From: a virus
IMG/VR virus record: IMGVR_UViG_3300045988_046501
Coordinates: 1-5,733 of that record
Direction: 5' to 3' (one strand)
DNA length: 5,733 bases
Both the position numbers and the translations under genes were made by a program. Position 1 is the stretch's first letter; each line of letters starts with the position of its first letter. Below are positions 170 through 5,733 of this stretch, piece by piece. Under the pieces are notes generated by a model. That model searched no databases. It worked only from the letters and a program-made list of their open reading frames with translations, and was not told the origin of the DNA.

Positions 170-198
170 ATTATACACCTCCTGTTCTTTCCTGTCAA
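170..198 (-). promoter_or_regulatory. Perfect consensus sigma70/sigmaA-type promoter TTGACA-17 nt-TATAAT driving the RHH and Rep genes
   Basis: On the minus strand, TTGACA is at 198->193, a 17-nt spacer (ggaaagaacaggaggtg) at 192->176, and TATAAT at 175->170. The -35 box directly abuts the VP2 stop codon (201->199). The RHH SD and ATG lie about 30-40 nt downstream. Confidence 0.6.
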
Positions 199-1083
199 TT
201 AGTGTTTTATTTTGCCCTCAATTTTGCCGGATACTTCATATTCTTTGCTCTGTGTTTCTTCGCTGTACTGGTTCCTTTCTGTTTTGCTCAGCTGGCCTAC
301 CTGTCTTGCGCTGGAGTCTGTGATCTGGCTCATCATACCTTGCAGCTGTTCTGCTGTCCAGTAGTCATTTGACTGTTTGGCGCTGTTGATTGCTGCTTGC
401 ATGTTCGTCAGTACCTGTGCTGTGTTGTTACCATAGTCATACATGGCCTGCATTGTTGCCGTTTTGGCTGCTGGAATTGCCATTGCTTGTGTATGGCTGT
501 AGGTCTGACCTCCGCCCACTGATGCATAACCGCCGTTTGGAGTGCTTGCGCCGTATCCGTTGTAAGCCGCCAAGATCGGATTTAATCCTGCTGCTTTGAG
601 GTCTTTTACGCCTCTCTGATAGGCTGTGGAACTCATTCGTTCTTCCCAGTCTCTTTGCAGCTGTGCTTCCTTTGCGTTGTACCTCATTGCGCTGCTTTGG
701 CTTGCTGCACTCATTGCATTGGTTGCTAAGCTTGCTCCTAAGTTGATGATGTTTCCGAGTTTCCATTGACTGGTTTGCAGGTCGTTTGCTGTTGTTGCAC
801 TGCCTAAGTTGAAATCAGCTGCGGTTTGACTGTTGTTTCCTGTAGGCGTTCCCAGGGCTGTGGATAGTAGGTTTCCGAGTGCTGAGGTGTTGCCTGTCTG
901 CACACTTCCTCCGGCTCCTGTGGTGGTTTGAGTGTTGTTTCCGGTGACTGTACCACTCGAGATGGTATTGTTCATTGTGTTCTGTCCGGTTGCGCTGGAT
1001 GAATTGCCTTTGAGGTTTGAGTAGATGCTTGATAGCATTCCTGCTATTTGCAATCCACCCATGAGTGTTGTAAACAAGCCCAT
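199..1083 (-). CDS. VP2-like minor capsid / DNA pilot protein (functional analogue of phiX174 H), 294 aa
   Basis: Contains the gokushovirus VP2 hallmark block [37 protein letters not shown]. It has a hydrophobic N-terminus followed by a long S/T/N/G-rich low-complexity segment. The SD AAGGAGGGG lies 7 nt upstream of the ATG, and the gene sits immediately downstream of VP1. Confidence 0.85.
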
Positions 1084-1095
1084 TTTGTCCCCTCC

Positions 1096-2778
1096 TTAAA
1101 TCGTTTCCAGGCCCGGGATGCTGTAGATCGGGAGAGGTCTTGTCCACGTCTGGTCGAAGTAGAAGTTGCAGATGAATTGATGGCTGTTGGAGCTCTGAAC
1201 TGCCAATGTTCGGTCGATGTTTGTTTTATTTTCTGTTATCCATCTTCCGCTTAGTTTTGGCAGCTCGTTGTATTTGTCCGCATAGTGCCATGCATCCAGT
1301 GTCTGTGCGTAGGTGCTGCGCATTTCGCTCGTTACCATGTTTGTGCGGTACCTGTAATCGGCCCAGGCTTCCTGGTAGCCAAAAACCTCTTCATCTTGTG
1401 CGGTTCCCTGTGCATAGATTTCCTGATTTAAAACGGCTTGTTCGCCCAGGTTTGCCAGCATTGGGTCATAGTAGCTGAATCTGGTGCTCCGCGTCCACAT
1501 TCGCGCAAGGCCTTGCTGATAGCTGTGTTCTACTCGTACTGCCGCCAGTCCAATGATGAATCCATGTTCTGTTGCCGAATAGGTGCACATGTTTCTGGAC
1601 ATGGTTGTCATACTGTATGCGCCGGTGTTGCCCTGCGGACTTGTGCTGTCTGTGCTGGAGGTCTGCACTACCTGATTGATGTTGATTGGCAGTCTGTATC
1701 CGCCAATGTATTCGCTTCGGTCGAGTCTTGCATCCGGCGAGGTGACCCCCCAGGCCCCCTGTAAGATTTCTTTGTACCTGGTGCCGGTTCTGGCATCTCG
1801 TTCCAGAATATGTTGTACTGCGATTGCTTGTCTGAGTTCGTTGATGGTTGTGCTTGTGGTATTGCTCAGATCTGCGCCGATGTAAGTTGTTTTGGTTGGG
1901 TTAATATTCCCTTGTTCTACGAAATTATAGTCGTCTTTTGCTTTTCCAATCAGCCTGCTTTGGAATTTTTGGATATCATCAAGGTCGAAATGTTGCTGAA
2001 GTTCTGCTTCTGTGTCTCCCCATGTCCATGGCGAGTAGTATATTTCTGGTTTTCCGATTGCGGCCGCTTGTTTTGTCATTTCTTTATCAGTGTATGTTCT
2101 GATTGGTGCGTTGCCTGTCAGTGGCAGCGTCACTGCTTCGCCTTTTTGAGGGCTCGGCAGGCAGCTTGTGAAGTAGTCTTTATATTTGGTTACTTTTAAG
2201 ACTTGTCCGCCTCTTTCCGGTGAATTTAGCCCGTCACTATCTTCGTTTGCTCCGTCCGTTGTTTCGTCTCCTGTGCTCATTGGCCGTGGTTCGCTAAGAT
2301 TTTCGTCTCTGAACCACTCATTCCAGATTTTTGTGTATGCTCGTAACGGTAGGCTGTTTACTTCTATGTTTTCAACGCCTGTCGGGATTCCGAAGTAATC
2401 AGCGACAGTTCCGACCTTCCATCCGCCTTTCGGTGCTTTGGTTTTCGGAGTCGTGTACTCTATGGGTTCCGCCCAGTAACTGCTGTCGTTCTGTCCCATG
2501 AGGTTTTCAAAGTGATCCCACAGCAGACGTGACGGCACGAAGAAGAAGTAGAAGTCGCAGTTGCAGTTATCCATGACCGGATAGAGTGGTGTACTCATTC
2601 TCATGAGTGCGTTCATGCTGATTTTTGCGGTATCGCCCGGCAAAACTTCATCACAGTAGATTGGCACCAGATCGCCCTCGTTGATTGTCGTCAGCAGGTT
2701 AAAATCTCGTTTGAATCGTGATCTCCGGATTTCTGCTCGTGGCACTTGTGCATAGTGCTGTTCGCTGTTTCGATTCAT
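1096..2778 (-). CDS. VP1 major capsid protein (Microviridae F-protein family), 560 aa
   Basis: Characteristic blocks are present: RSRFKRDFNLLTTINEGDLVPIYCDEVLPGDT, DFYFFFVPSRLLW, INELRQAIAVQHILERDARTGTRYKEIL, QVVQTSST, EHGFIIGLAAVR..YQQG, LANLGEQAVLNQEIY and FGYQEAWADYRY. The SD is AAAGGAG. The ATG overlaps the VP3 stop (ATGA). Confidence 0.97.
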   Translation of the reverse strand: MNRNSEQHYAQVPRAEIRRSRFKRDFNLLTTINEGDLVPIYCDEVLPGDTAKISMNALMRMSTPLYPVMDNCNCDFYFFFVPSRLLWDHFENLMGQNDSSYWAEPIEYTTPKTKAPKGGWKVGTVADYFGIPTGVENIEVNSLPLRAYTKIWNEWFRDENLSEPRPMSTGDETTDGANEDSDGLNSPERGGQVLKVTKYKDYFTSCLPSPQKGEAVTLPLTGNAPIRTYTDKEMTKQAAAIGKPEIYYSPWTWGDTEAELQQHFDLDDIQKFQSRLIGKAKDDYNFVEQGNINPTKTTYIGADLSNTTSTTINELRQAIAVQHILERDARTGTRYKEILQGAWGVTSPDARLDRSEYIGGYRLPININQVVQTSSTDSTSPQGNTGAYSMTTMSRNMCTYSATEHGFIIGLAAVRVEHSYQQGLARMWTRSTRFSYYDPMLANLGEQAVLNQEIYAQGTAQDEEVFGYQEAWADYRYRTNMVTSEMRSTYAQTLDAWHYADKYNELPKLSGRWITENKTNIDRTLAVQSSNSHQFICNFYFDQTWTRPLPIYSIPGLETI

Positions 2779-3269
2779 TTATTTTCTCCTTTTTGCACAT
2801 CTTTTTCCGTTGCTGCAGCGGTTTCTTTTTGTGCATTTTGCTGTTTTTCAAAGCCCATGGCTTTCATCCAGTTTTCATCACCTGCGGTTGCTGCCCACTT
2901 TTCAAAGGACATTCCGAACGCTGCCCGGATGTTGAGCGGCAGTTTTTCGAATTTTTCTCGCTGTTCGTTCATGAGGTTCATGAATTCGGTGTAGCTGCTC
3001 GGTAGCTTGCTGGTGTCGATGTACCAGCCCGGTTTTGCAAGGGCAGTCTGATCTCCGGCTGCGTATCGGCTGAGGATGCTCATAATGTCGCATTCATCCC
3101 GGTAACTCTGGATTTTTTCATAGACGTTTACTTCGCCCACTTTTTCGAGATAGGCTACGCCTCGTTCATCATACCGCTCCTTATACTGCGGTTCCATGAT
3201 GCTGCCTGGATCGTTGAACAGCGCTGGCGGTTTTTCGTCTTCGTATGGTTTAAAGATTCTTACTGCCAT
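2775..3269 (-). CDS. VP3-like internal scaffolding protein, 164 aa
   Basis: The size, acidic and helical character, and motifs typical of gokushovirus VP3 (YEKIQSYRDECDI..IL.RYAAGD and FEKLPLNIRAAF) all fit. The SD is AAAGGAG. Translation appears coupled to VP1 through a 4-nt overlap. Confidence 0.8.
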   Translation of the reverse strand: MAVRIFKPYEDEKPPALFNDPGSIMEPQYKERYDERGVAYLEKVGEVNVYEKIQSYRDECDIMSILSRYAAGDQTALAKPGWYIDTSKLPSSYTEFMNLMNEQREKFEKLPLNIRAAFGMSFEKWAATAGDENWMKAMGFEKQQNAQKETAAATEKDVQKGENK

Positions 3270-3513
3270 TTTCCTGCTCCTTTTTCATGATTTCGAGGTT
3301 ATAGACCATCTCCGGCATTCCGTTCGGCACGATTTGGCCGCTTTCGTTGTCGTACTGGGCCATCAGATAGACTCGTTTGTCTTCCGTGTCGCTCTTTTCC
3401 ATCTCCTGTGCCATCCACTTAAAGGTGCGTGCTGCCACCTTTTCGTTGACTACCATCAGATTGCCGAAAGTCCCGGCCAGTTCGTCTTTTACTGCATATA
3501 CCTGAAAAATCAT
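3250..3513 (-). CDS. VP5-like small non-structural protein, 87 aa
   Basis: The N-terminal pattern MIFQVYAVKDELAGTFGNLMVVNEKVAARTF and the later YLMAQYDNESGQIVP resemble, from memory, the conserved ~85-aa gokushovirus ORF5 family. The SD GGAG lies 8 nt upstream. The gene overlaps the VP3 start by 20 nt. Confidence 0.55.
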   Translation of the reverse strand: MIFQVYAVKDELAGTFGNLMVVNEKVAARTFKWMAQEMEKSDTEDKRVYLMAQYDNESGQIVPNGMPEMVYNLEIMKKEQENGSKNL

Positions 3514-3525
3514 GTTTTTTTCTCC

Positions 3526-3645
3526 TTACAGTCGGATACCACCCCGAGACGGCTTCGGGTTGATATTGATTTTCTTCGTCTTCTTTGCCGTGTTGGTGAA
3601 GATTTTCTTATCCTTTTTCGGATTTACGGGCATTCTGTGTGCCAT
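3526..3645 (-). CDS. Small, highly basic DNA-binding/packaging protein (gokushovirus ORF8-like, analogue of phiX174 J), 39 aa. It is below the ORF-track length cutoff.
   Basis: My hand translation gives MAHRMPVNPKKDKKIFTNTAKKTKKININPKPSRGGIRL*. The SD AAGGAGGAG lies 5 nt before the ATG at 3645. The protein is K/R-rich with a C-terminal RGGxRL motif typical of these proteins. Its stop overlaps the SD of the next gene. Confidence 0.6.
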   Translation of the reverse strand: MAHRMPVNPKKDKKIFTNTAKKTKKININPKPSRGGIRL

Positions 3646-3755
3646 TTTTACTCCTCCTTATCGAGTTCCAAAGCGTGATAGATTTTGTCCAGCATGGCCA
3701 GGATCTTCCGAAGCTGGTTGAAGATTCCCTTGACGTCTCTCAAAGTAATTATTGG

Positions 3756-4139
3756 TTATACCCCCTTTCTGTAAAAGTCTTTTCTTACATCGACATGCAC
3801 AAAGTTTGTGTATAAGATCACTCCTCCGTGTGTGCCGAGGATTTCACTTGCTGTCTGAGCTACTTTTCGAGGACTTACATTTTTCACCCAGATGTCCGCT
3901 GCCATTCCGGCCAGGTGGTAGCTGTAAGCTTTTCCGCCTACTTTTTCATTCCATTTTTCGGTTCTGAACCCTGAGTTGATGTGCAGTACTCCGAGTCTGT
4001 TTCGGATTTCCTGCAGCAGCTCTGCCAGTTCATCTGCTATCAGCACAAGATCGCTGCCATCTTTACAGGCATATTCCCTGACCTTGAAATTTTCTGTCAC
4101 TTGTCCGTTTCTGTCGTTGTGCATTCTGTAGATTTTCAC
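3756..4139 (-). CDS. Zinc D,D- or L,D-peptidoglycan peptidase, Peptidase_M15 (M15A/M15_3, LAS-fold) family, 127 aa; a putative endolysin
   Basis: The family signature is readable: FKVREYACKDG ... INSGFRTEKWNEKVGGKAYSYHLAGMAADI (H-x6-D zinc ligands) ... FVHVDVR (third His, then Asp). The start is GTG at 4139, with GGGGGA 8 nt upstream. The nearby ATG at 4141 is immediately followed by TGA. There is no signal peptide, transmembrane segment or wall-binding domain. Confidence 0.85.
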   Translation of the reverse strand: MKIYRMHNDRNGQVTENFKVREYACKDGSDLVLIADELAELLQEIRNRLGVLHINSGFRTEKWNEKVGGKAYSYHLAGMAADIWVKNVSPRKVAQTASEILGTHGGVILYTNFVHVDVRKDFYRKGV

Positions 4140-4163
4140 ATTTTTAATCCCCCTTTCGTTTTT

Positions 4164-4190
4164 ATTTTAGCAAAAAAAAAAAAATTGCAA
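4164..4190 (-). promoter_or_regulatory. Candidate late promoter with an extended -10 element: TTGCAA - 15 nt (T13 GC) - TAAAAT, with TGn directly upstream of the -10
   Basis: The minus strand reads ccTTGCAA-TTTTTTTTTTTTT-GC-TAAAAT-aaaaacgaaaGGGGGAttaaaaatGTG. TGC at 4172->4170 gives TGnTAAAAT. The promoter sits just upstream of the first gene of the structural block. The 15-nt spacer is short, so the -35 assignment is weak. Confidence 0.4.
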
Positions 4191-4211
4191 GGTCTTTGTT
4201 TGAGGCCTTGC
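4172..4211 (-). terminator. Intrinsic (Rho-independent) terminator downstream of Rep
   Basis: The minus-strand RNA would be GCAAGG-CCUCAAACAAAGA-CCUUGC-AA-U13. The stem pairs 4211-4206 with 4192-4187, and two further pairs are possible inside the loop. A 13-nt U tract (4184->4172) follows. Confidence 0.55.
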
Positions 4212-4215
4212 GCTA

Positions 4216-4234
4216 GGCACGGTTGCCCCGTGCC
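4216..4234. other. GC-rich hairpin B: GGCACGG-ttgcc-CCGTGCC (7-bp perfect stem, 5-nt loop)
   Basis: Read directly from the sequence. It lies in the largest non-coding region, and its function is unknown. Confidence 0.5.
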
Positions 4235-4245
4235 GTATGAAAAGC

Positions 4246-4283
4246 AAGGCGCAACCCAGTGTTCTGCATCCGGATTGCGCCTT
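4246..4283. other. Hairpin C: AAGGCGCAA-20 nt-TTGCGCCTT (9-bp perfect stem)
   Basis: Read directly from the sequence. On the coding strand it begins 13 nt after the Rep stop codon. Confidence 0.5.
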
Positions 4284-4296
4284 TAATTGCCGTTCC

Positions 4297-5406
4297 TTAT
4301 ATTTCGTCTCTTATCAGTTTTTTGAATTTGTCTTGAATTAGTTGATTTTCCTTGTTATAATATTCCTGTAGGGTTAAGCCGTTGTTCTGTTTGAGCTTAG
4401 CGAAGAGTGCGTCATTTGCGAGTTTACGACGCTTTCTTTTTATCGCTTTAAGTTCATCGGACTCGGCTTTTTCTGTTATCAGCTCAATATCTTCTACTTC
4501 TGATTTCGAGAGTGGTTTTTTCAGACATTGTGCATCATACAGCTTGTCGAAATATCGTGGTGGTTTGCACACTTTCCCATTTTTCAGTTGAATCTTGTCG
4601 TTTTCGTAGATTTCCTTGCTGTGTTCTTCAAAATATCTCGCTCCAATTGCTGGTCTTTTGCTCATGTTGCATTTTTCTGGCAGAATTCCGAGCTCGTTAT
4701 AAAATTCTTTGCCCTCCTTTCCGTATACCTTTTTTGTGGTGTATCTGGCTGTGTATGCCATTGCTTTCCATTCTGCTGGAGCAATGACAACATAACCCAA
4801 ACCCCACAATTTTGTAATCCAATCGACGTTGTAATATACAGCGCCGTTTTTCTTTTTGTAGATCTTCAACTCTTCATTTTTTATCGGTAAATCGTAAACT
4901 ATTGCATGATAATGTGGCCTGTGTGTTTTTCCACCGTATTCACCACATTGAAAGTACATCAGTTGACCGCAGTTTTTTTCATGGTATCTGATGTGATCTC
5001 TGAGCCGTTTCCAAAATTTTTGCATGTCATCATACTTGAGCGAGTAGTTTTCGGTGTAGATTTCGCCTGTTTCCTCGTTCCATACTGCTCGAAGTGGTAC
5101 ATGCTCTTCATCGTATGTCAAGGTGATGAACCATGCATTTTTATGATACGGCAATTCTAATTCCATTCGGTTTGCCCAGCTGCTTGCTGCTGCCATTTTG
5201 CAAGCCGGACAGTGTCCACATGGTAGTAGCTGTGCATCCTGGTTCTTCAGCTGCTCTTTGATTTTTTTCTCGTTCCTGGCTTGAGTCTTTTTGTCTGCGT
5301 TCTGGTTCAAGAATAAGCCTGTGTGTTCTATGTACCCTTTCAGGCTGACTATGCGGTATTCTCCGCTTTTGGTCGGTACTCTTATGAGTGGTCTTGTACA
5401 TGCCAT
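4297..5406 (-). CDS. VP4 replication initiation protein (HUH rolling-circle endonuclease, phiX174 A-protein superfamily), 369 aa from the ATG
   Basis: Motifs present: LPCGHCPACK, motif 1 FITLTY, motif 2 RPHYHAIVY (HUH), and motif 3 AYTARYTTKK (two catalytic tyrosines, Y-x3-Y). I chose the ATG at 5406 (MACTRPL..., a typical VP4 N-terminus) over the TTG at 5442 used by the ORF track. GGAGGAGG lies 14 nt upstream of that ATG. Confidence 0.93.
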   Translation of the reverse strand: MACTRPLIRVPTKSGEYRIVSLKGYIEHTGLFLNQNADKKTQARNEKKIKEQLKNQDAQLLPCGHCPACKMAAASSWANRMELELPYHKNAWFITLTYDEEHVPLRAVWNEETGEIYTENYSLKYDDMQKFWKRLRDHIRYHEKNCGQLMYFQCGEYGGKTHRPHYHAIVYDLPIKNEELKIYKKKNGAVYYNVDWITKLWGLGYVVIAPAEWKAMAYTARYTTKKVYGKEGKEFYNELGILPEKCNMSKRPAIGARYFEEHSKEIYENDKIQLKNGKVCKPPRYFDKLYDAQCLKKPLSKSEVEDIELITEKAESDELKAIKRKRRKLANDALFAKLKQNNGLTLQEYYNKENQLIQDKFKKLIRDEI

Positions 5407-5429
5407 ATTGTTTCGTTGCACCTCCTCCC

Positions 5430-5472
5430 CAATGGGCCCCAATAACTCTCTTGATGTTATTGGGGCCCATTG
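5430..5472. repeat. Perfect 17-bp inverted repeat with a 9-nt loop: CAATGGGCCCCAATAAC-tctcttgat-GTTATTGGGGCCCATTG
   Basis: The arms are 5430-5446 and 5456-5472, with no mismatch. Each arm contains GGGCCC. On the coding strand the stem ends exactly where the Rep SD (GGGAGGAGG) begins. Confidence 0.9.
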
Positions 5473-5553: not shown

Positions 5554-5721
5554 CTAGTCCTGCAAGCCCATTGTTTCTGCATACATGTTGATAGCGTCCC
5601 GGATTATATCACTTTCGGTATATCGTGTATTTTCCAGAGTACATGCCTTGATGTGTTCTAGTGATTTGATTTCTTTCTCTGTTAGGTTGATGTTTATTCG
5701 TTTGACTATTTGACTTCTCAT
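5554..5721 (-). CDS. Ribbon-helix-helix (CopG/Arc/MetJ-type) DNA-binding protein, 55 aa. It is not in the ORF track and is intact only across the circular junction.
   Basis: My hand translation gives MRSQIVKRININLTEKEIKSLEHIKACTLENTRYTESDIIRDAINMYAETMGLQD*. The layout is a classic RHH: a basic N-terminal beta-strand with alternating polar residues (KRININL), helix A (TEKEIKSLEHIKA), a turn, then helix B (ESDIIRDAINMY). AGGAGG lies 6 nt before the ATG at 5721, and the TAG stop is at 5556->5554. Confidence 0.65.
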   Translation of the reverse strand: MRSQIVKRININLTEKEIKSLEHIKACTLENTRYTESDIIRDAINMYAETMGLQD

Positions 5722-5733
5722 GTTGTTCCTCCT
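5593..5733. repeat. Second copy of the 141-nt terminal redundancy
   Basis: Identical to 1-141. Confidence 0.95.

What the first reader, a model, noticed from the sequence alone, without database searches (positions are those of the whole stretch)
3756..4139. Enzymatic peptidoglycan hydrolase (M15 zinc peptidase) in a 5.6-kb ssDNA phage, with no holin, signal peptide or SAR domain
Cultured microviruses either lyse through a single-gene inhibitor of murein synthesis (phiX174 E blocks MraY) or, for gokushoviruses, have no identified lysis gene. Here the first gene of the structural/late block encodes a 127-aa LAS-fold M15 peptidase with an intact H-x6-D...H-x-D zinc site. This is the catalytic module used by endolysins of tailed phages. 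I found no transmembrane-containing ORF in any frame on the coding strand. The four alternative-frame ORFs are hydrophilic and basic, and the peptidase has no secretion signal, so how it reaches the wall is open. It might use host secretion, VP2-mediated membrane damage, virion association for entry, or a very small unrecognised membrane peptide. The gene is likely a horizontal acquisition. I recall M15 peptidases being noted occasionally in metagenomic microviruses but cannot verify that here, so I claim novelty for the holin-less context rather than for the domain itself.
Basis: partly seen in the sequence, partly recalled or inferred. Interest (0 to 1): 0.68.

Follow-up and report, generated by a model that had tools for sequence, protein, structure and literature searches.

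The report
Gokushovirus M15 wall peptidase, no holin
A small gut ssDNA phage carries an intact zinc cell-wall peptidase and no recognisable membrane-hole protein, but this arrangement has been known in such phages since 2012, so the gene is an ordinary member of an already described accessory gene family.

Summary
Window 3756-4139 (- strand) encodes a 127-aa single-domain M15_3/LAS zinc peptidase. Its H75, D82, H115 and D117 site is invariant in 30 aligned relatives, the AlphaFold model has pLDDT 97, and dN/dS is 0.04-0.17. The host genome is a circular 5,592-nt gokushovirus. No frame of the coding strand contains a transmembrane-grade hydrophobic stretch, and the peptidase has no signal or SAR segment.

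The novelty claim does not hold. M15_3 peptidases in human-gut gokushoviruses were reported, and contrasted with holin-endolysin lysis, by Roux et al. 2012. Cultured microviruses with wall hydrolases now exist.

Four results are new here:
- All 65 microvirus copies sampled form one clade, apart from 82 Clostridia (pro)phage copies.
- 57 of those 65 genomes have no TM-grade ORF at all.
- The gene sits in a hypervariable slot after VP4 and is absent from about two thirds of genus-level relatives, so it is dispensable.
- An unannotated, strongly constrained 34-aa amphipathic ORF lies immediately downstream.

The best reading is an accessory endolysin that uses a membrane lesion made by something other than a holin. 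The host is probably a Clostridia bacterium. Interest is modest.

The parts
3756..4139 (-). 127-aa single-domain M15_3/LAS zinc peptidoglycan peptidase with a GTG start. Zn ligands are H75, D82 and H115; the catalytic residue is D117; the substrate-binding motif is S56-x-x-R59.
   Evidence: dN/dS is 0.04-0.17.
4148..4156 (-). Shine-Dalgarno AAAGGGGGA, 9 nt upstream of the GTG start.
   Evidence: Every gene in the genome has a comparably strong SD.
4165..4296 (-). Intergenic region after VP4. It holds three G+C-rich hairpins, the last followed by T13 (4172-4184), which is terminator-like. Next comes TTGCAA-15 nt-TGCTAAAAT, which I read by eye as an extended -10-like promoter; the scan tool did not call it.
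   Evidence: Fold z-score -5.0, with 0 of 200 shuffles as stable. The region is conserved in relatives with and without the peptidase. The scan did not call this site (15-nt spacer).
3648..3752 (-). Conserved small ORF directly after the peptidase stop. It is 34 aa if it starts at ATA 3752-3750, and 31 aa from TTG 3743. Relatives start at ATG or GTG. It forms an amphipathic helix with the motif ...ILAMLDKIYHAL....
   Evidence: Hydrophobic moment (muH) is 0.65. dN/dS is 0.065. It has no PHROG hit and is unannotated in most GenBank records.
3526..3645 (-). 39-aa Lys/Arg-rich ORF. I read it as a VP8/J-like DNA-binding protein from its composition; the only hit, PHROG 10695, has unknown function. 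Its antisense is the spurious hydrophobic + strand ORF at 3512-3721.
1024..1080 (-). N-terminal hydrophobic segment of the VP2 pilot protein ([19 protein letters not shown]). It is the most hydrophobic stretch within any ORF of 20 aa or more with a start codon on the coding strand. It is an inferred candidate for the membrane lesion, not a shown one.
   Evidence: Kyte-Doolittle score 1.29. The equivalent segment scores 1.68-1.73 in L165 and L028.
4297..5406 (-). VP4 replication initiator, which forms the upstream boundary of the accessory slot. The likely start is ATG 5406, with GGAGGAGG upstream, giving 369 aa as in relatives.

Best explanation
The ORF encodes a soluble, cytoplasmically made, single-domain zinc peptidoglycan peptidase of the LAS fold and Pfam family M15_3. 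It serves the phage as an accessory endolysin.

Expression: it is the first ORF after the terminator-like hairpins that follow VP4. It has a strong Shine-Dalgarno sequence, so it is probably made together with the structural proteins.

Action: at the end of infection it cuts peptide stems or cross-links of the host wall and speeds or completes cell bursting.

Access to the wall: no dedicated holin, signal peptide or SAR anchor takes it across the membrane. About two thirds of its closest relatives lack any wall hydrolase and any membrane protein yet must still get out. The genus must therefore have a peptidase-independent way of compromising the envelope, and the peptidase exploits that lesion.

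Candidates for the lesion, all inferred: the hydrophobic N-terminus of the VP2 pilot protein, the conserved 34-aa amphipathic peptide encoded next to the peptidase, or simple loss of membrane integrity in the dying cell.

Host: probably a Clostridia bacterium (Oscillospiraceae or Lachnospiraceae type).

Shown here: the enzyme family, the intact site, purifying selection, the accessory status, and the absence of TM, signal or SAR segments.

Inferred: muralytic activity, timing, role in release, route to the wall, and the host.
For: Enzyme identity and integrity.

Purifying selection: dN/dS 0.04-0.17 over eight genomes.

Homologues in tailed phages sit in lysis cassettes:
- In FP_oengus the annotated endolysin shares 42.6% identity and an annotated holin lies two genes downstream.
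- 71 of 74 non-microvirus loci with full flanks have a TM-grade ORF within 1.5 kb on the same strand.

The holin-less state is general and long-lived:
- 57 of 65 microvirus genomes with this peptidase have no TM-grade ORF anywhere on the coding strand. Two of the eight exceptions are VP2 N-termini.
- All 65 copies form one clade, separate from 82 cellular or dsDNA-phage copies.

Accessory status:
- The four closest GenBank genomes (about 75% nt identity) and about 22 of 33 VP1 relatives lack the gene.
- They carry unrelated small hydrophilic ORFs, or nothing, in the same slot.

Host hint:
- The 80 best cellular loci (43-54% identity) are nearly all Clostridia MAGs or genomes.
- Every gene has a strong GGAGG-type Shine-Dalgarno sequence.

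Literature:
- A lysis role was proposed by PMC3394797.
- A microviral wall hydrolase (Ebor Gp7) was shown active in zymograms (PMC11980548).
Against: - No activity, expression or localisation data exist for this protein or any close relative.
- The bond it cleaves is unknown. The only NCBIfam hit, MepK, scores 37 bits against a cutoff of 185.
- Because close relatives do without it, it cannot be the essential lysis factor. Its benefit could lie elsewhere, for example in entry, clearing debris or attacking neighbouring cells.
- The lesion-making factor is not identified.
- The hydropathy scan cannot detect non-TM membrane-active proteins.
- The tree is neighbour-joining, midpoint-rooted and without support values, and it was built on best-hit samples.
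Confidence: 0.6

Rival explanations
1. The peptidase acts from outside, during entry. It is carried in or on the virion, or released with the progeny, and locally thins the thick wall of a Gram-positive-type host so that a tailless 5.6-kb phage can reach the membrane. An enzyme working from outside needs no holin.
For: - The inferred host class is Clostridia, which has a thick wall.
- No export device is present.
- Ebor Gp7, a microviral wall hydrolase, was detected in purified virions, though only in trace amount (PMC11980548).
Against: - Close relatives with 72-75% identical VP1 lack the gene yet would face the same wall.
- The protein has no extra domain that could dock to VP1 or VP2.
- In tailed phages the nearest homologues are free-standing genes in lysis cassettes next to holins, not fusions with tail proteins.
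- A T=1 capsid leaves little spare volume. This last point is from general knowledge and was not tested.
Confidence: 0.15
2. The peptidase is a released 'public good'. It is freed only when the cell bursts by another mechanism. It then degrades wall debris so that progeny are not trapped on fragments, or weakens neighbouring cells from without.
For: - It is dispensable within the genus.
- It has no route across an intact membrane.
- Externally added endolysins are active on Gram-positive-type walls. This is established knowledge and was not tested here.
Against: - There is no direct evidence.
- The idea is hard to separate from an accelerating role in lysis.
- Strong purifying selection fits either role.
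Confidence: 0.15
3. A holin exists but was missed. The candidate is the 69-aa, two-TM ORF on the complementary strand at 3512-3721 (+), or another non-canonical product.
For: - It is the most hydrophobic ORF in the window, with Kyte-Doolittle score 2.93 and an ATG start, and it lies next to the peptidase.
- Roux 2012 noted one complementary-strand ORF next to a microviral peptidase (PMC3394797).
Against: - It is the in-register antisense of the Lys-rich 39-aa VP8-like ORF, so Phe/Leu richness and openness are expected.
- The whole antisense strand is hydrophobic, with 308 of 3,012 windows at or above 1.6, because the coding strand is 37% A and 17% T.
- Its ends differ among the window, L001 and L002.
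- The differences are conservative in VP8 (K/R, I/V) but disruptive in the antisense frame (KIF to NTR).
- Microvirus genes are all read from one strand.
Confidence: 0.04
4. The gene is a decaying or neutral passenger picked up recently from a bacterium or prophage.
For: - Its distribution within the genus is patchy.
- The slot it occupies is variable.
Against: - dN/dS is 0.04-0.17.
- All catalytic residues are invariant.
- The microvirus-specific clade has 65 members spanning 43-96% identity.
- The best cellular relatives are at most 54% identical.
Confidence: 0.02

Closest known systems
M15_3 peptidases of human-gut Gokushovirinae and Alpavirinae (Roux et al. 2012, PMC3394797), for example KX513868, KX513876 and KX513877, annotated 'peptidase M15'
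   Same: - Same Pfam family.
- Same size and single-domain build.
- Same kind of genome and habitat.
- Same affinity to Faecalibacterium/Clostridia homologues.
- Same lack of a holin.
- The copies fall in one clade in my tree.
   Different: - Only 43-53% identical to the GenBank microvirus copies.
- This sub-lineage (81-96% identical copies) is so far seen only in IMG/VR, ENA and Logan contigs.
Endolysin of Faecalibacterium phage FP_oengus and related Clostridia (pro)phage M15 peptidases
   Same: - Single-domain peptidase of about 130-140 aa with the same catalytic residues.
- 42.6% identity for FP_oengus, and 43-54% for the cellular loci.
   Different: - These sit in lysis cassettes with a holin.
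- The window genome has none.
Ebor Gp7, peptidoglycan hydrolase of a cultured Rhodobacter microvirus (PMC11980548)
   Same: - Accessory wall hydrolase in a microvirus.
- The only one with demonstrated activity.
   Different: - Its authors' best HHpred template is 6SSC_A, not an M15 enzyme. I did not compare the sequences.
- Ebor also encodes a predicted 45-aa membrane protein (Gp1).
- Different subfamily, and a Gram-negative host.
M15 peptidases of cultured marine and soil microviruses (vB_RpoMi-Mini, CRPss roseophages, Rhizobium microviruses; PMC9865509, PMC11499846, PMC9512667)
   Same: - M15-type or 'endolysin' gene in tiny genomes with no reported holin.
- A lysis role is assumed.
   Different: - Different microvirus families and alphaproteobacterial hosts.
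- Sequence relationship to this copy was not tested.
phiX174 protein E (single-gene lysis, MraY inhibitor)
   Same: Lysis device of a microvirus without a holin.
   Different: - E is a small membrane protein overprinted in another gene, and it has no enzymatic activity.
- Nothing comparable exists on the coding strand here.
Streptomyces albus Zn DD-peptidase (PDB 1lbu) and other LAS enzymes (VanXY, LysB4, Shh-N)
   Same: - Same fold.
- Same H-x6-D...H zinc site.
   Different: - Distant: 23% identity and TM-score 0.57.
- Bond specificity cannot be transferred.

Membership tests
Peptidase M15 / LAS zinc peptidases (Pfam PF08291 Peptidase_M15_3) | Profile match above the curated threshold | tested here: met
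   72.8 bits against a cutoff of 23.2, E 3e-20, covering profile positions 7-108 of 108.
Peptidase M15 / LAS zinc peptidases (Pfam PF08291 Peptidase_M15_3) | Zinc ligands H-x6-D and a distal H, plus the catalytic D of the H-x-D motif and the S-x-x-R substrate motif | tested here: met
   H75, D82, H115, D117, S56 and R59 are invariant in 30 sequences. The H-x6-D motif aligns to the same motif in 1lbu.
Peptidase M15 / LAS zinc peptidases (Pfam PF08291 Peptidase_M15_3) | LAS fold | tested here: met
   The model has pLDDT 97.2. The top PDB hits are 1lbu, Shh-N, VanXYc and LysB4. Phage peptidases in BFVD match at TM-score 0.95.
Peptidase M15 / LAS zinc peptidases (Pfam PF08291 Peptidase_M15_3) | Zinc-dependent cleavage of peptidoglycan peptides | not testable with these tools
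   This needs purified protein and sacculi.
Microviral accessory M15 peptidase (Roux 2012; Kirchberger 2022) | Encoded in a genome with microvirus VP1, VP2 and VP4 | tested here: met
   Phage_F 9.8e-167, Chlamy_scaf, Phage_ORF5, Rep and pilot protein PHROGs. The unit is a circular 5,592 nt.
Microviral accessory M15 peptidase (Roux 2012; Kirchberger 2022) | Groups with other microviral copies rather than with cellular or tailed-phage copies | tested here: met
   In a neighbour-joining tree of 147 sequences, the 65 microviral copies form one clade. The tree has no support values.
Microviral accessory M15 peptidase (Roux 2012; Kirchberger 2022) | Accessory, meaning patchy among close relatives | tested here: met
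   Absent from L001-L004 and from about 22 of 33 VP1 relatives.
Canonical holin-endolysin cassette of tailed phages | Small membrane protein (holin) encoded with the endolysin | tested here: not met
   No Kyte-Doolittle window at or above 1.6 in any frame of the coding strand. The positive control found such ORFs next to 71 of 74 homologous peptidases in non-microvirus loci.
Secreted or SAR endolysins | N-terminal signal peptide or signal-anchor-release segment | tested here: not met
   The N-terminus MKIYRMHNDRNGQVTENFKV is hydrophilic and the protein maximum Kyte-Doolittle score is 0.99. An upstream in-frame stop lies at 4167-4169. No SignalP was available.
Single-gene lysis proteins (phiX174 E type) | Small, usually overprinted, membrane-anchored protein | tested here: not met
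MepK (peptidoglycan L,D-endopeptidase, NCBIfam NF053624) | Equivalog score at or above the cutoff | tested here: not met
   37.3 bits against a cutoff of 185.

The most novel reading that the evidence does not exclude
Gut gokushoviruses of this group infect Gram-positive-type Clostridia and breach the membrane without a transmembrane holin. The lesion would come from the conserved, unannotated 34-40-aa amphipathic peptide encoded right after the peptidase slot, or from the VP2 N-terminus. That peptide would be the core release factor of the lineage, and the M15 peptidase would be a swappable booster that uses the lesion to reach the wall.
Probability: 0.1. Interest if true: 0.7.

Novelty: new member of a known kind. 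Interest (0 to 1): 0.3.

Why it matters
How gokushoviruses leave their hosts is still unknown, and no cultured microvirus infects a Gram-positive bacterium. This gene does not answer either question. M15 peptidases in gut gokushoviruses are a published observation.

The comparative results sharpen the problem in three ways:
- The peptidase is an optional, long-maintained, microvirus-specific module that has persisted without a holin in dozens of genomes.
- The essential release function must therefore lie in the conserved core genes.
- The enzyme's relatives point to Clostridia as hosts.

This narrows where to look, namely VP2 and the conserved 34-aa amphipathic ORF, once a culturable member or a synthetic genome is available.

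Tried and rejected
1. Complementary-strand 69-aa two-TM ORF (3512-3721 +) as a holin. Rejected as the antisense mirror of the Lys-rich VP8-like ORF. Its ends vary, its substitutions are non-conservative, and hydrophobicity is strand-wide.
2. N-terminal extension of the peptidase, as in the 177-aa P0006. This is a gene call running through the intergenic hairpins and T-run, and the window has an in-frame stop there.
3. TM segments of 12-19 aa, or segments lacking a start codon, on the coding strand. No 19-aa window in any frame reaches 1.6. Shorter windows reach it only at isolated sites: 1 of 3,699 at 15 aa and 6 of 4,030 at 12 aa, for example LLLLLRAVTSAV in an alternative frame of VP1. I did not examine these further.
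4. A more basic or membrane-active microviral version of the enzyme. The pI and charge distributions do not differ from tailed-phage copies (pI 9.49 vs 9.60, p = 0.34).
5. MepK equivalog assignment, to infer bond specificity. The score is far below the cutoff.
6. The small ORF as a peptidase-specific partner. Rejected because it is present in most peptidase-less relatives.
7. PHROG searches of the small ORF, of the slot ORFs of relatives and of the small TM ORFs gave nothing useful.
8. Literature searches for an explicit treatment of holin-less microviral endolysins found only Roux 2012 and passing remarks.

Full report
**The sequence**

The window is a circular genome assembled with a 141-nt terminal overlap (1-141 = 5593-5733), so the unit is 5,592 nt. 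All recognisable genes are on the - strand:

| Gene | Coordinates | Evidence |
|---|---|---|
| Ribbon-helix-helix-like ORF | 5554-5721 | Pfam RHH_1, 20.0 bits against a cutoff of 20.5 |
| VP4 replication initiator | 4297-5442; probable start ATG 5406 | PHROG 942, 2.5e-95 |
| Peptidase | 3756-4139 | see below |
| Small ORF | 3648-3752 | conserved in relatives |
| Basic 39-aa VP8-like ORF | 3526-3645 | PHROG 10695 |
| VP5 | 3250-3513 | Pfam Phage_ORF5 |
| VP3 scaffold | 2775-3269 | Pfam Chlamy_scaf |
| VP1 capsid | 1096-2778 | Pfam Phage_F, 9.8e-167 |
| VP2 pilot | 199-1083 | pilot protein PHROGs |

This is a gokushovirus layout. Three further features stand out:
- A perfect TTGACA-17-TATAAT promoter lies at 198-170 on the - strand, ahead of the RHH ORF.
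- Every gene has a strong GGAGG-type Shine-Dalgarno sequence.
- The coding strand is 36.7% A and 17.3% T.

**The observation**

The ORF at 3756-4139 encodes 127 aa from a GTG start, with AAAGGGGGA 9 nt upstream.

- It matches Pfam Peptidase_M15_3 at 72.8 bits against a cutoff of 23.2. It also matches DUF882 more weakly and PHROG 894 'endolysin' at 1.2e-33.
- In an alignment of 30 homologues with 43-95% identity, S56, R59, H75, D82, H115 and D117 are invariant. These are the S-x-x-R substrate motif, the H-x6-D plus H zinc triad, and the catalytic Asp of LAS enzymes.
- AlphaFold2 gives pLDDT 97.2.
- The best PDB matches are the Streptomyces Zn DD-peptidase 1lbu, hedgehog N-domains, VanXYc and the endolysin LysB4.
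- Predicted phage peptidases in BFVD superpose at TM-score 0.95.
- Pairwise dN/dS against seven related genomes is 0.04-0.17, so the gene is under strong purifying selection.

The description of the enzyme is therefore correct.

**No holin, signal peptide or SAR domain**

- A Kyte-Doolittle scan of all ORFs of 20 aa or more on the coding strand finds nothing at or above 1.6. The top scores are the VP2 N-terminus (1.29) and a core beta-strand of the peptidase itself (0.99).
- Ignoring start codons altogether, 0 of 3,310 stop-free 19-residue windows on the coding strand reach 1.6, against 308 of 3,012 on the antisense strand. This asymmetry follows from the A-rich, T-poor coding strand.
- The peptidase N-terminus is hydrophilic.
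- The longer 177-aa product called in one relative (P0006) is a read-through of the intergenic hairpins. The window has an in-frame stop there.
- The most hydrophobic ORF in the window (3512-3721, + strand, 69 aa) is the in-register antisense of the Lys-rich VP8-like ORF. Its boundaries differ among relatives. Its differences are disruptive in the antisense frame and conservative in the VP8 frame. I reject it as a gene.

As a control, the same scan finds a TM-grade ORF within 1.5 kb on the same strand next to 71 of 74 homologous peptidases in non-microvirus loci with full flanks. Many of these are obvious holins. In cultured Faecalibacterium phage FP_oengus the homologous endolysin has an annotated holin two genes downstream. 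The control is not very specific, because it counts any-frame ORFs, but the contrast is large.

**How general the arrangement is**

- IMG/VR holds at least 555 relatives of the peptidase. The best 80 are mostly 5.4-6.2-kb circular contigs.
- Of 65 loci that carry both a VP1 and this peptidase, 57 have no TM-grade ORF anywhere on the coding strand. Two of the eight exceptions are VP2 N-termini. The other six are short ORFs of 29-49 aa. Four of them (L169-L172) share a related FVVVVV-rich sequence in the VP4-peptidase intergenic region, which I take to be repeat or T-run sequence rather than a gene. None occurs in the window or its nearest relatives.
- In a neighbour-joining tree of 147 peptidases, all 65 microviral copies form one clade, apart from 82 copies from Clostridia genomes and tailed phages. 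The tree is midpoint-rooted, has no support values and was built on best-hit samples.

The holin-less state is thus an old and stable property of a microvirus-specific peptidase lineage, not a peculiarity of this genome.

**Accessory status**

- The four closest GenBank genomes (MG945797, KX513873, MG945186, MG945569) are about 75% identical in nucleotide sequence over 79-85% of the genome. They have the same gene order but no peptidase.
- Among 33 genomes with 65-95% identical VP1, the peptidase is present in the window's own species (L005, L006, L173) and in L165 and L167. A different copy with 53% identity is present in L023 and L027. It is absent from about 22.
- The region between VP4 and the small ORF is a hypervariable slot. 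It holds unrelated hydrophilic ORFs of 52-76 aa, or nothing.
- The flanking intergenic hairpins, T-run and small ORF are conserved.
- The three hairpins fold far better than shuffles (z = -5.0), and the last is followed by T13.

Because close relatives do without any wall hydrolase, the genus must have a peptidase-independent release mechanism, and the peptidase must be a dispensable enhancer.

**Host**

- The 80 best cellular loci (43-54% identity) are almost all Clostridia. They include Oscillospiraceae, Oscillibacter, Faecalibacterium, Acutalibacteraceae, Lachnospiraceae, Lacrimispora and Peptococcaceae, often on long contigs.
- Together with the uniformly strong Shine-Dalgarno sequences, this supports a Bacillota host, as Roux et al. 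suggested in 2012.
- This remains an inference from gene relatedness, not a host assignment.

**The neighbouring small ORF**

- An ORF of 28-40 aa, with the motif ...IKDVK...ILxxLDxIYHAL..., starts 0-4 nt after the peptidase stop in most peptidase-bearing microvirus loci. In a few it follows VP8.
- In the window the homologous ATG is ATA (3752-3750), with the Shine-Dalgarno sequence 8 nt upstream. A TTG at 3743 is the alternative start.
- It is strongly amphipathic, with Eisenberg hydrophobic moment 0.65-0.75 and mean hydrophobicity about 0.1.
- It is under strong constraint (dN/dS 0.065).
- It has no PHROG match and is unannotated in nearly all of 31 GenBank gokushovirus records that contain it.
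- It is also present in most peptidase-less relatives, so it is a core small gene of this lineage rather than a peptidase partner.
- Whether it is membrane-active is unknown.

**Mechanism**

I commit to an accessory endolysin. It is a soluble zinc peptidase made late, and it degrades the wall once the membrane is compromised by a factor other than a holin.

- Candidates for that factor are the VP2 N-terminal hydrophobic helix, the amphipathic small protein, or non-specific membrane failure. None of these is shown.
- The rivals are an entry or virion-associated role and a released 'public good' role. A missed holin and a decaying passenger gene are essentially excluded.

**Comparison with what is known**

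- Roux et al. 2012 (PMC3394797) reported M15_3 peptidases in five human-gut gokushoviruses and six alpaviruses. They linked them to Faecalibacterium and prophage lysis cassettes, contrasted them with phiX174 E and with holin-endolysin systems, and proposed a lysis role.
- Kirchberger et al. 2022 (PMC9239249) list peptidases as the recurrent microviral accessory gene and document its exchange between microviruses.
- Cultured microviruses with M15 or 'endolysin' genes exist (PMC11499846, PMC9512667, PMC9865509).
- Ebor Gp7 is an experimentally active microviral wall hydrolase, found in trace amounts in virions, in a genome that also has a predicted 45-aa membrane protein (PMC11980548).

**Verdict**

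The gene is a new member of a known kind. Interest is 0.3. The finding itself is ordinary, but the comparative results sharpen an open question about gokushovirus release. Those results are the single microviral clade, the dispensability within the genus, the systematic lack of membrane ORFs, the Clostridia affinity, and the conserved unannotated amphipathic ORF.

Noticed in passing
window 3648-3752 (-); also L001 1604-1708, L167 2880-2987 and most of L005-L084: Conserved, unannotated 28-40-aa amphipathic ORF (...ILxxLDxIYHAL...) directly after the accessory slot. dN/dS is 0.065 and it has no PHROG or Pfam match. It is present with or without the peptidase. In the window its ATG is replaced by ATA.
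   Followed up: partly
L002 1841-1933 and L189 (MNEVQLIIK..TLSLLIADLYMIVKMIRRK); L183 and L184 (MVDILQSTAIVLIAAYIIMNEIRNWRK): Two unrelated 27-30-aa single-TM ORFs with basic C-termini recur in four peptidase-less relatives; in L002 the ORF lies between VP8 and VP5. They are possible small lysis proteins. None occurs in the peptidase-bearing genomes of the genus.
   Followed up: partly
slot between VP4 and the small ORF: window 3753-4296; L001 1111-1603; L174-L194: Hypervariable accessory slot. Relatives carry at least five unrelated hydrophilic ORFs of 52-76 aa (for example MYNKG..., MKSYYEEEVENCAAALYDGGW..., and Cys-rich MENLYKDLDTETLNWMDYRYEHCDGACEKCPCH...), or nothing. In L001 and L002 the slot ORF has its own TTGACA-17-TATAAT promoter.
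   Followed up: partly
window 170-198 (-) and 5554-5721 (-): A perfect sigma-70 consensus promoter (12 of 12) lies just downstream of VP2. It precedes a 55-aa ribbon-helix-helix-like ORF (Pfam RHH_1, 20.0 bits against a cutoff of 20.5) that is conserved in nearly all genus relatives, upstream of VP4. It is a possible transcriptional regulator, which is unusual for a microvirus.
   Followed up: partly
window 5430-5472: A perfect 17-nt inverted repeat (CAATGGGCCCCAATAAC / GTTATTGGGGCCCATTG, 9-nt loop) lies about 25-65 nt upstream of the probable VP4 start at ATG 5406, inside the longer 381-aa TTG reading. It could be an operator for the RHH protein or an origin hairpin.
   Followed up: no
many peptidase-bearing loci, e.g. 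L007, L008, L010, L169 4239-4460, L172 4524-4745: A second conserved ORF of 73-75 aa (motif KxWNVRDQT...) follows the small ORF in many gut gokushoviruses. It is absent from the window's lineage and its function is unknown.
   Followed up: no
whole window: The coding strand is 36.7% A and only 17.3% T. This by itself suppresses hydrophobic reading frames on the coding strand and fills the antisense strand with spurious TM-like ORFs.
   Followed up: yes
L023, L027: These genomes have VP1 66-84% identical to the window but carry an M15 copy only 53% identical to the window's. This suggests cassette replacement between gokushoviruses at the same slot.
   Followed up: no
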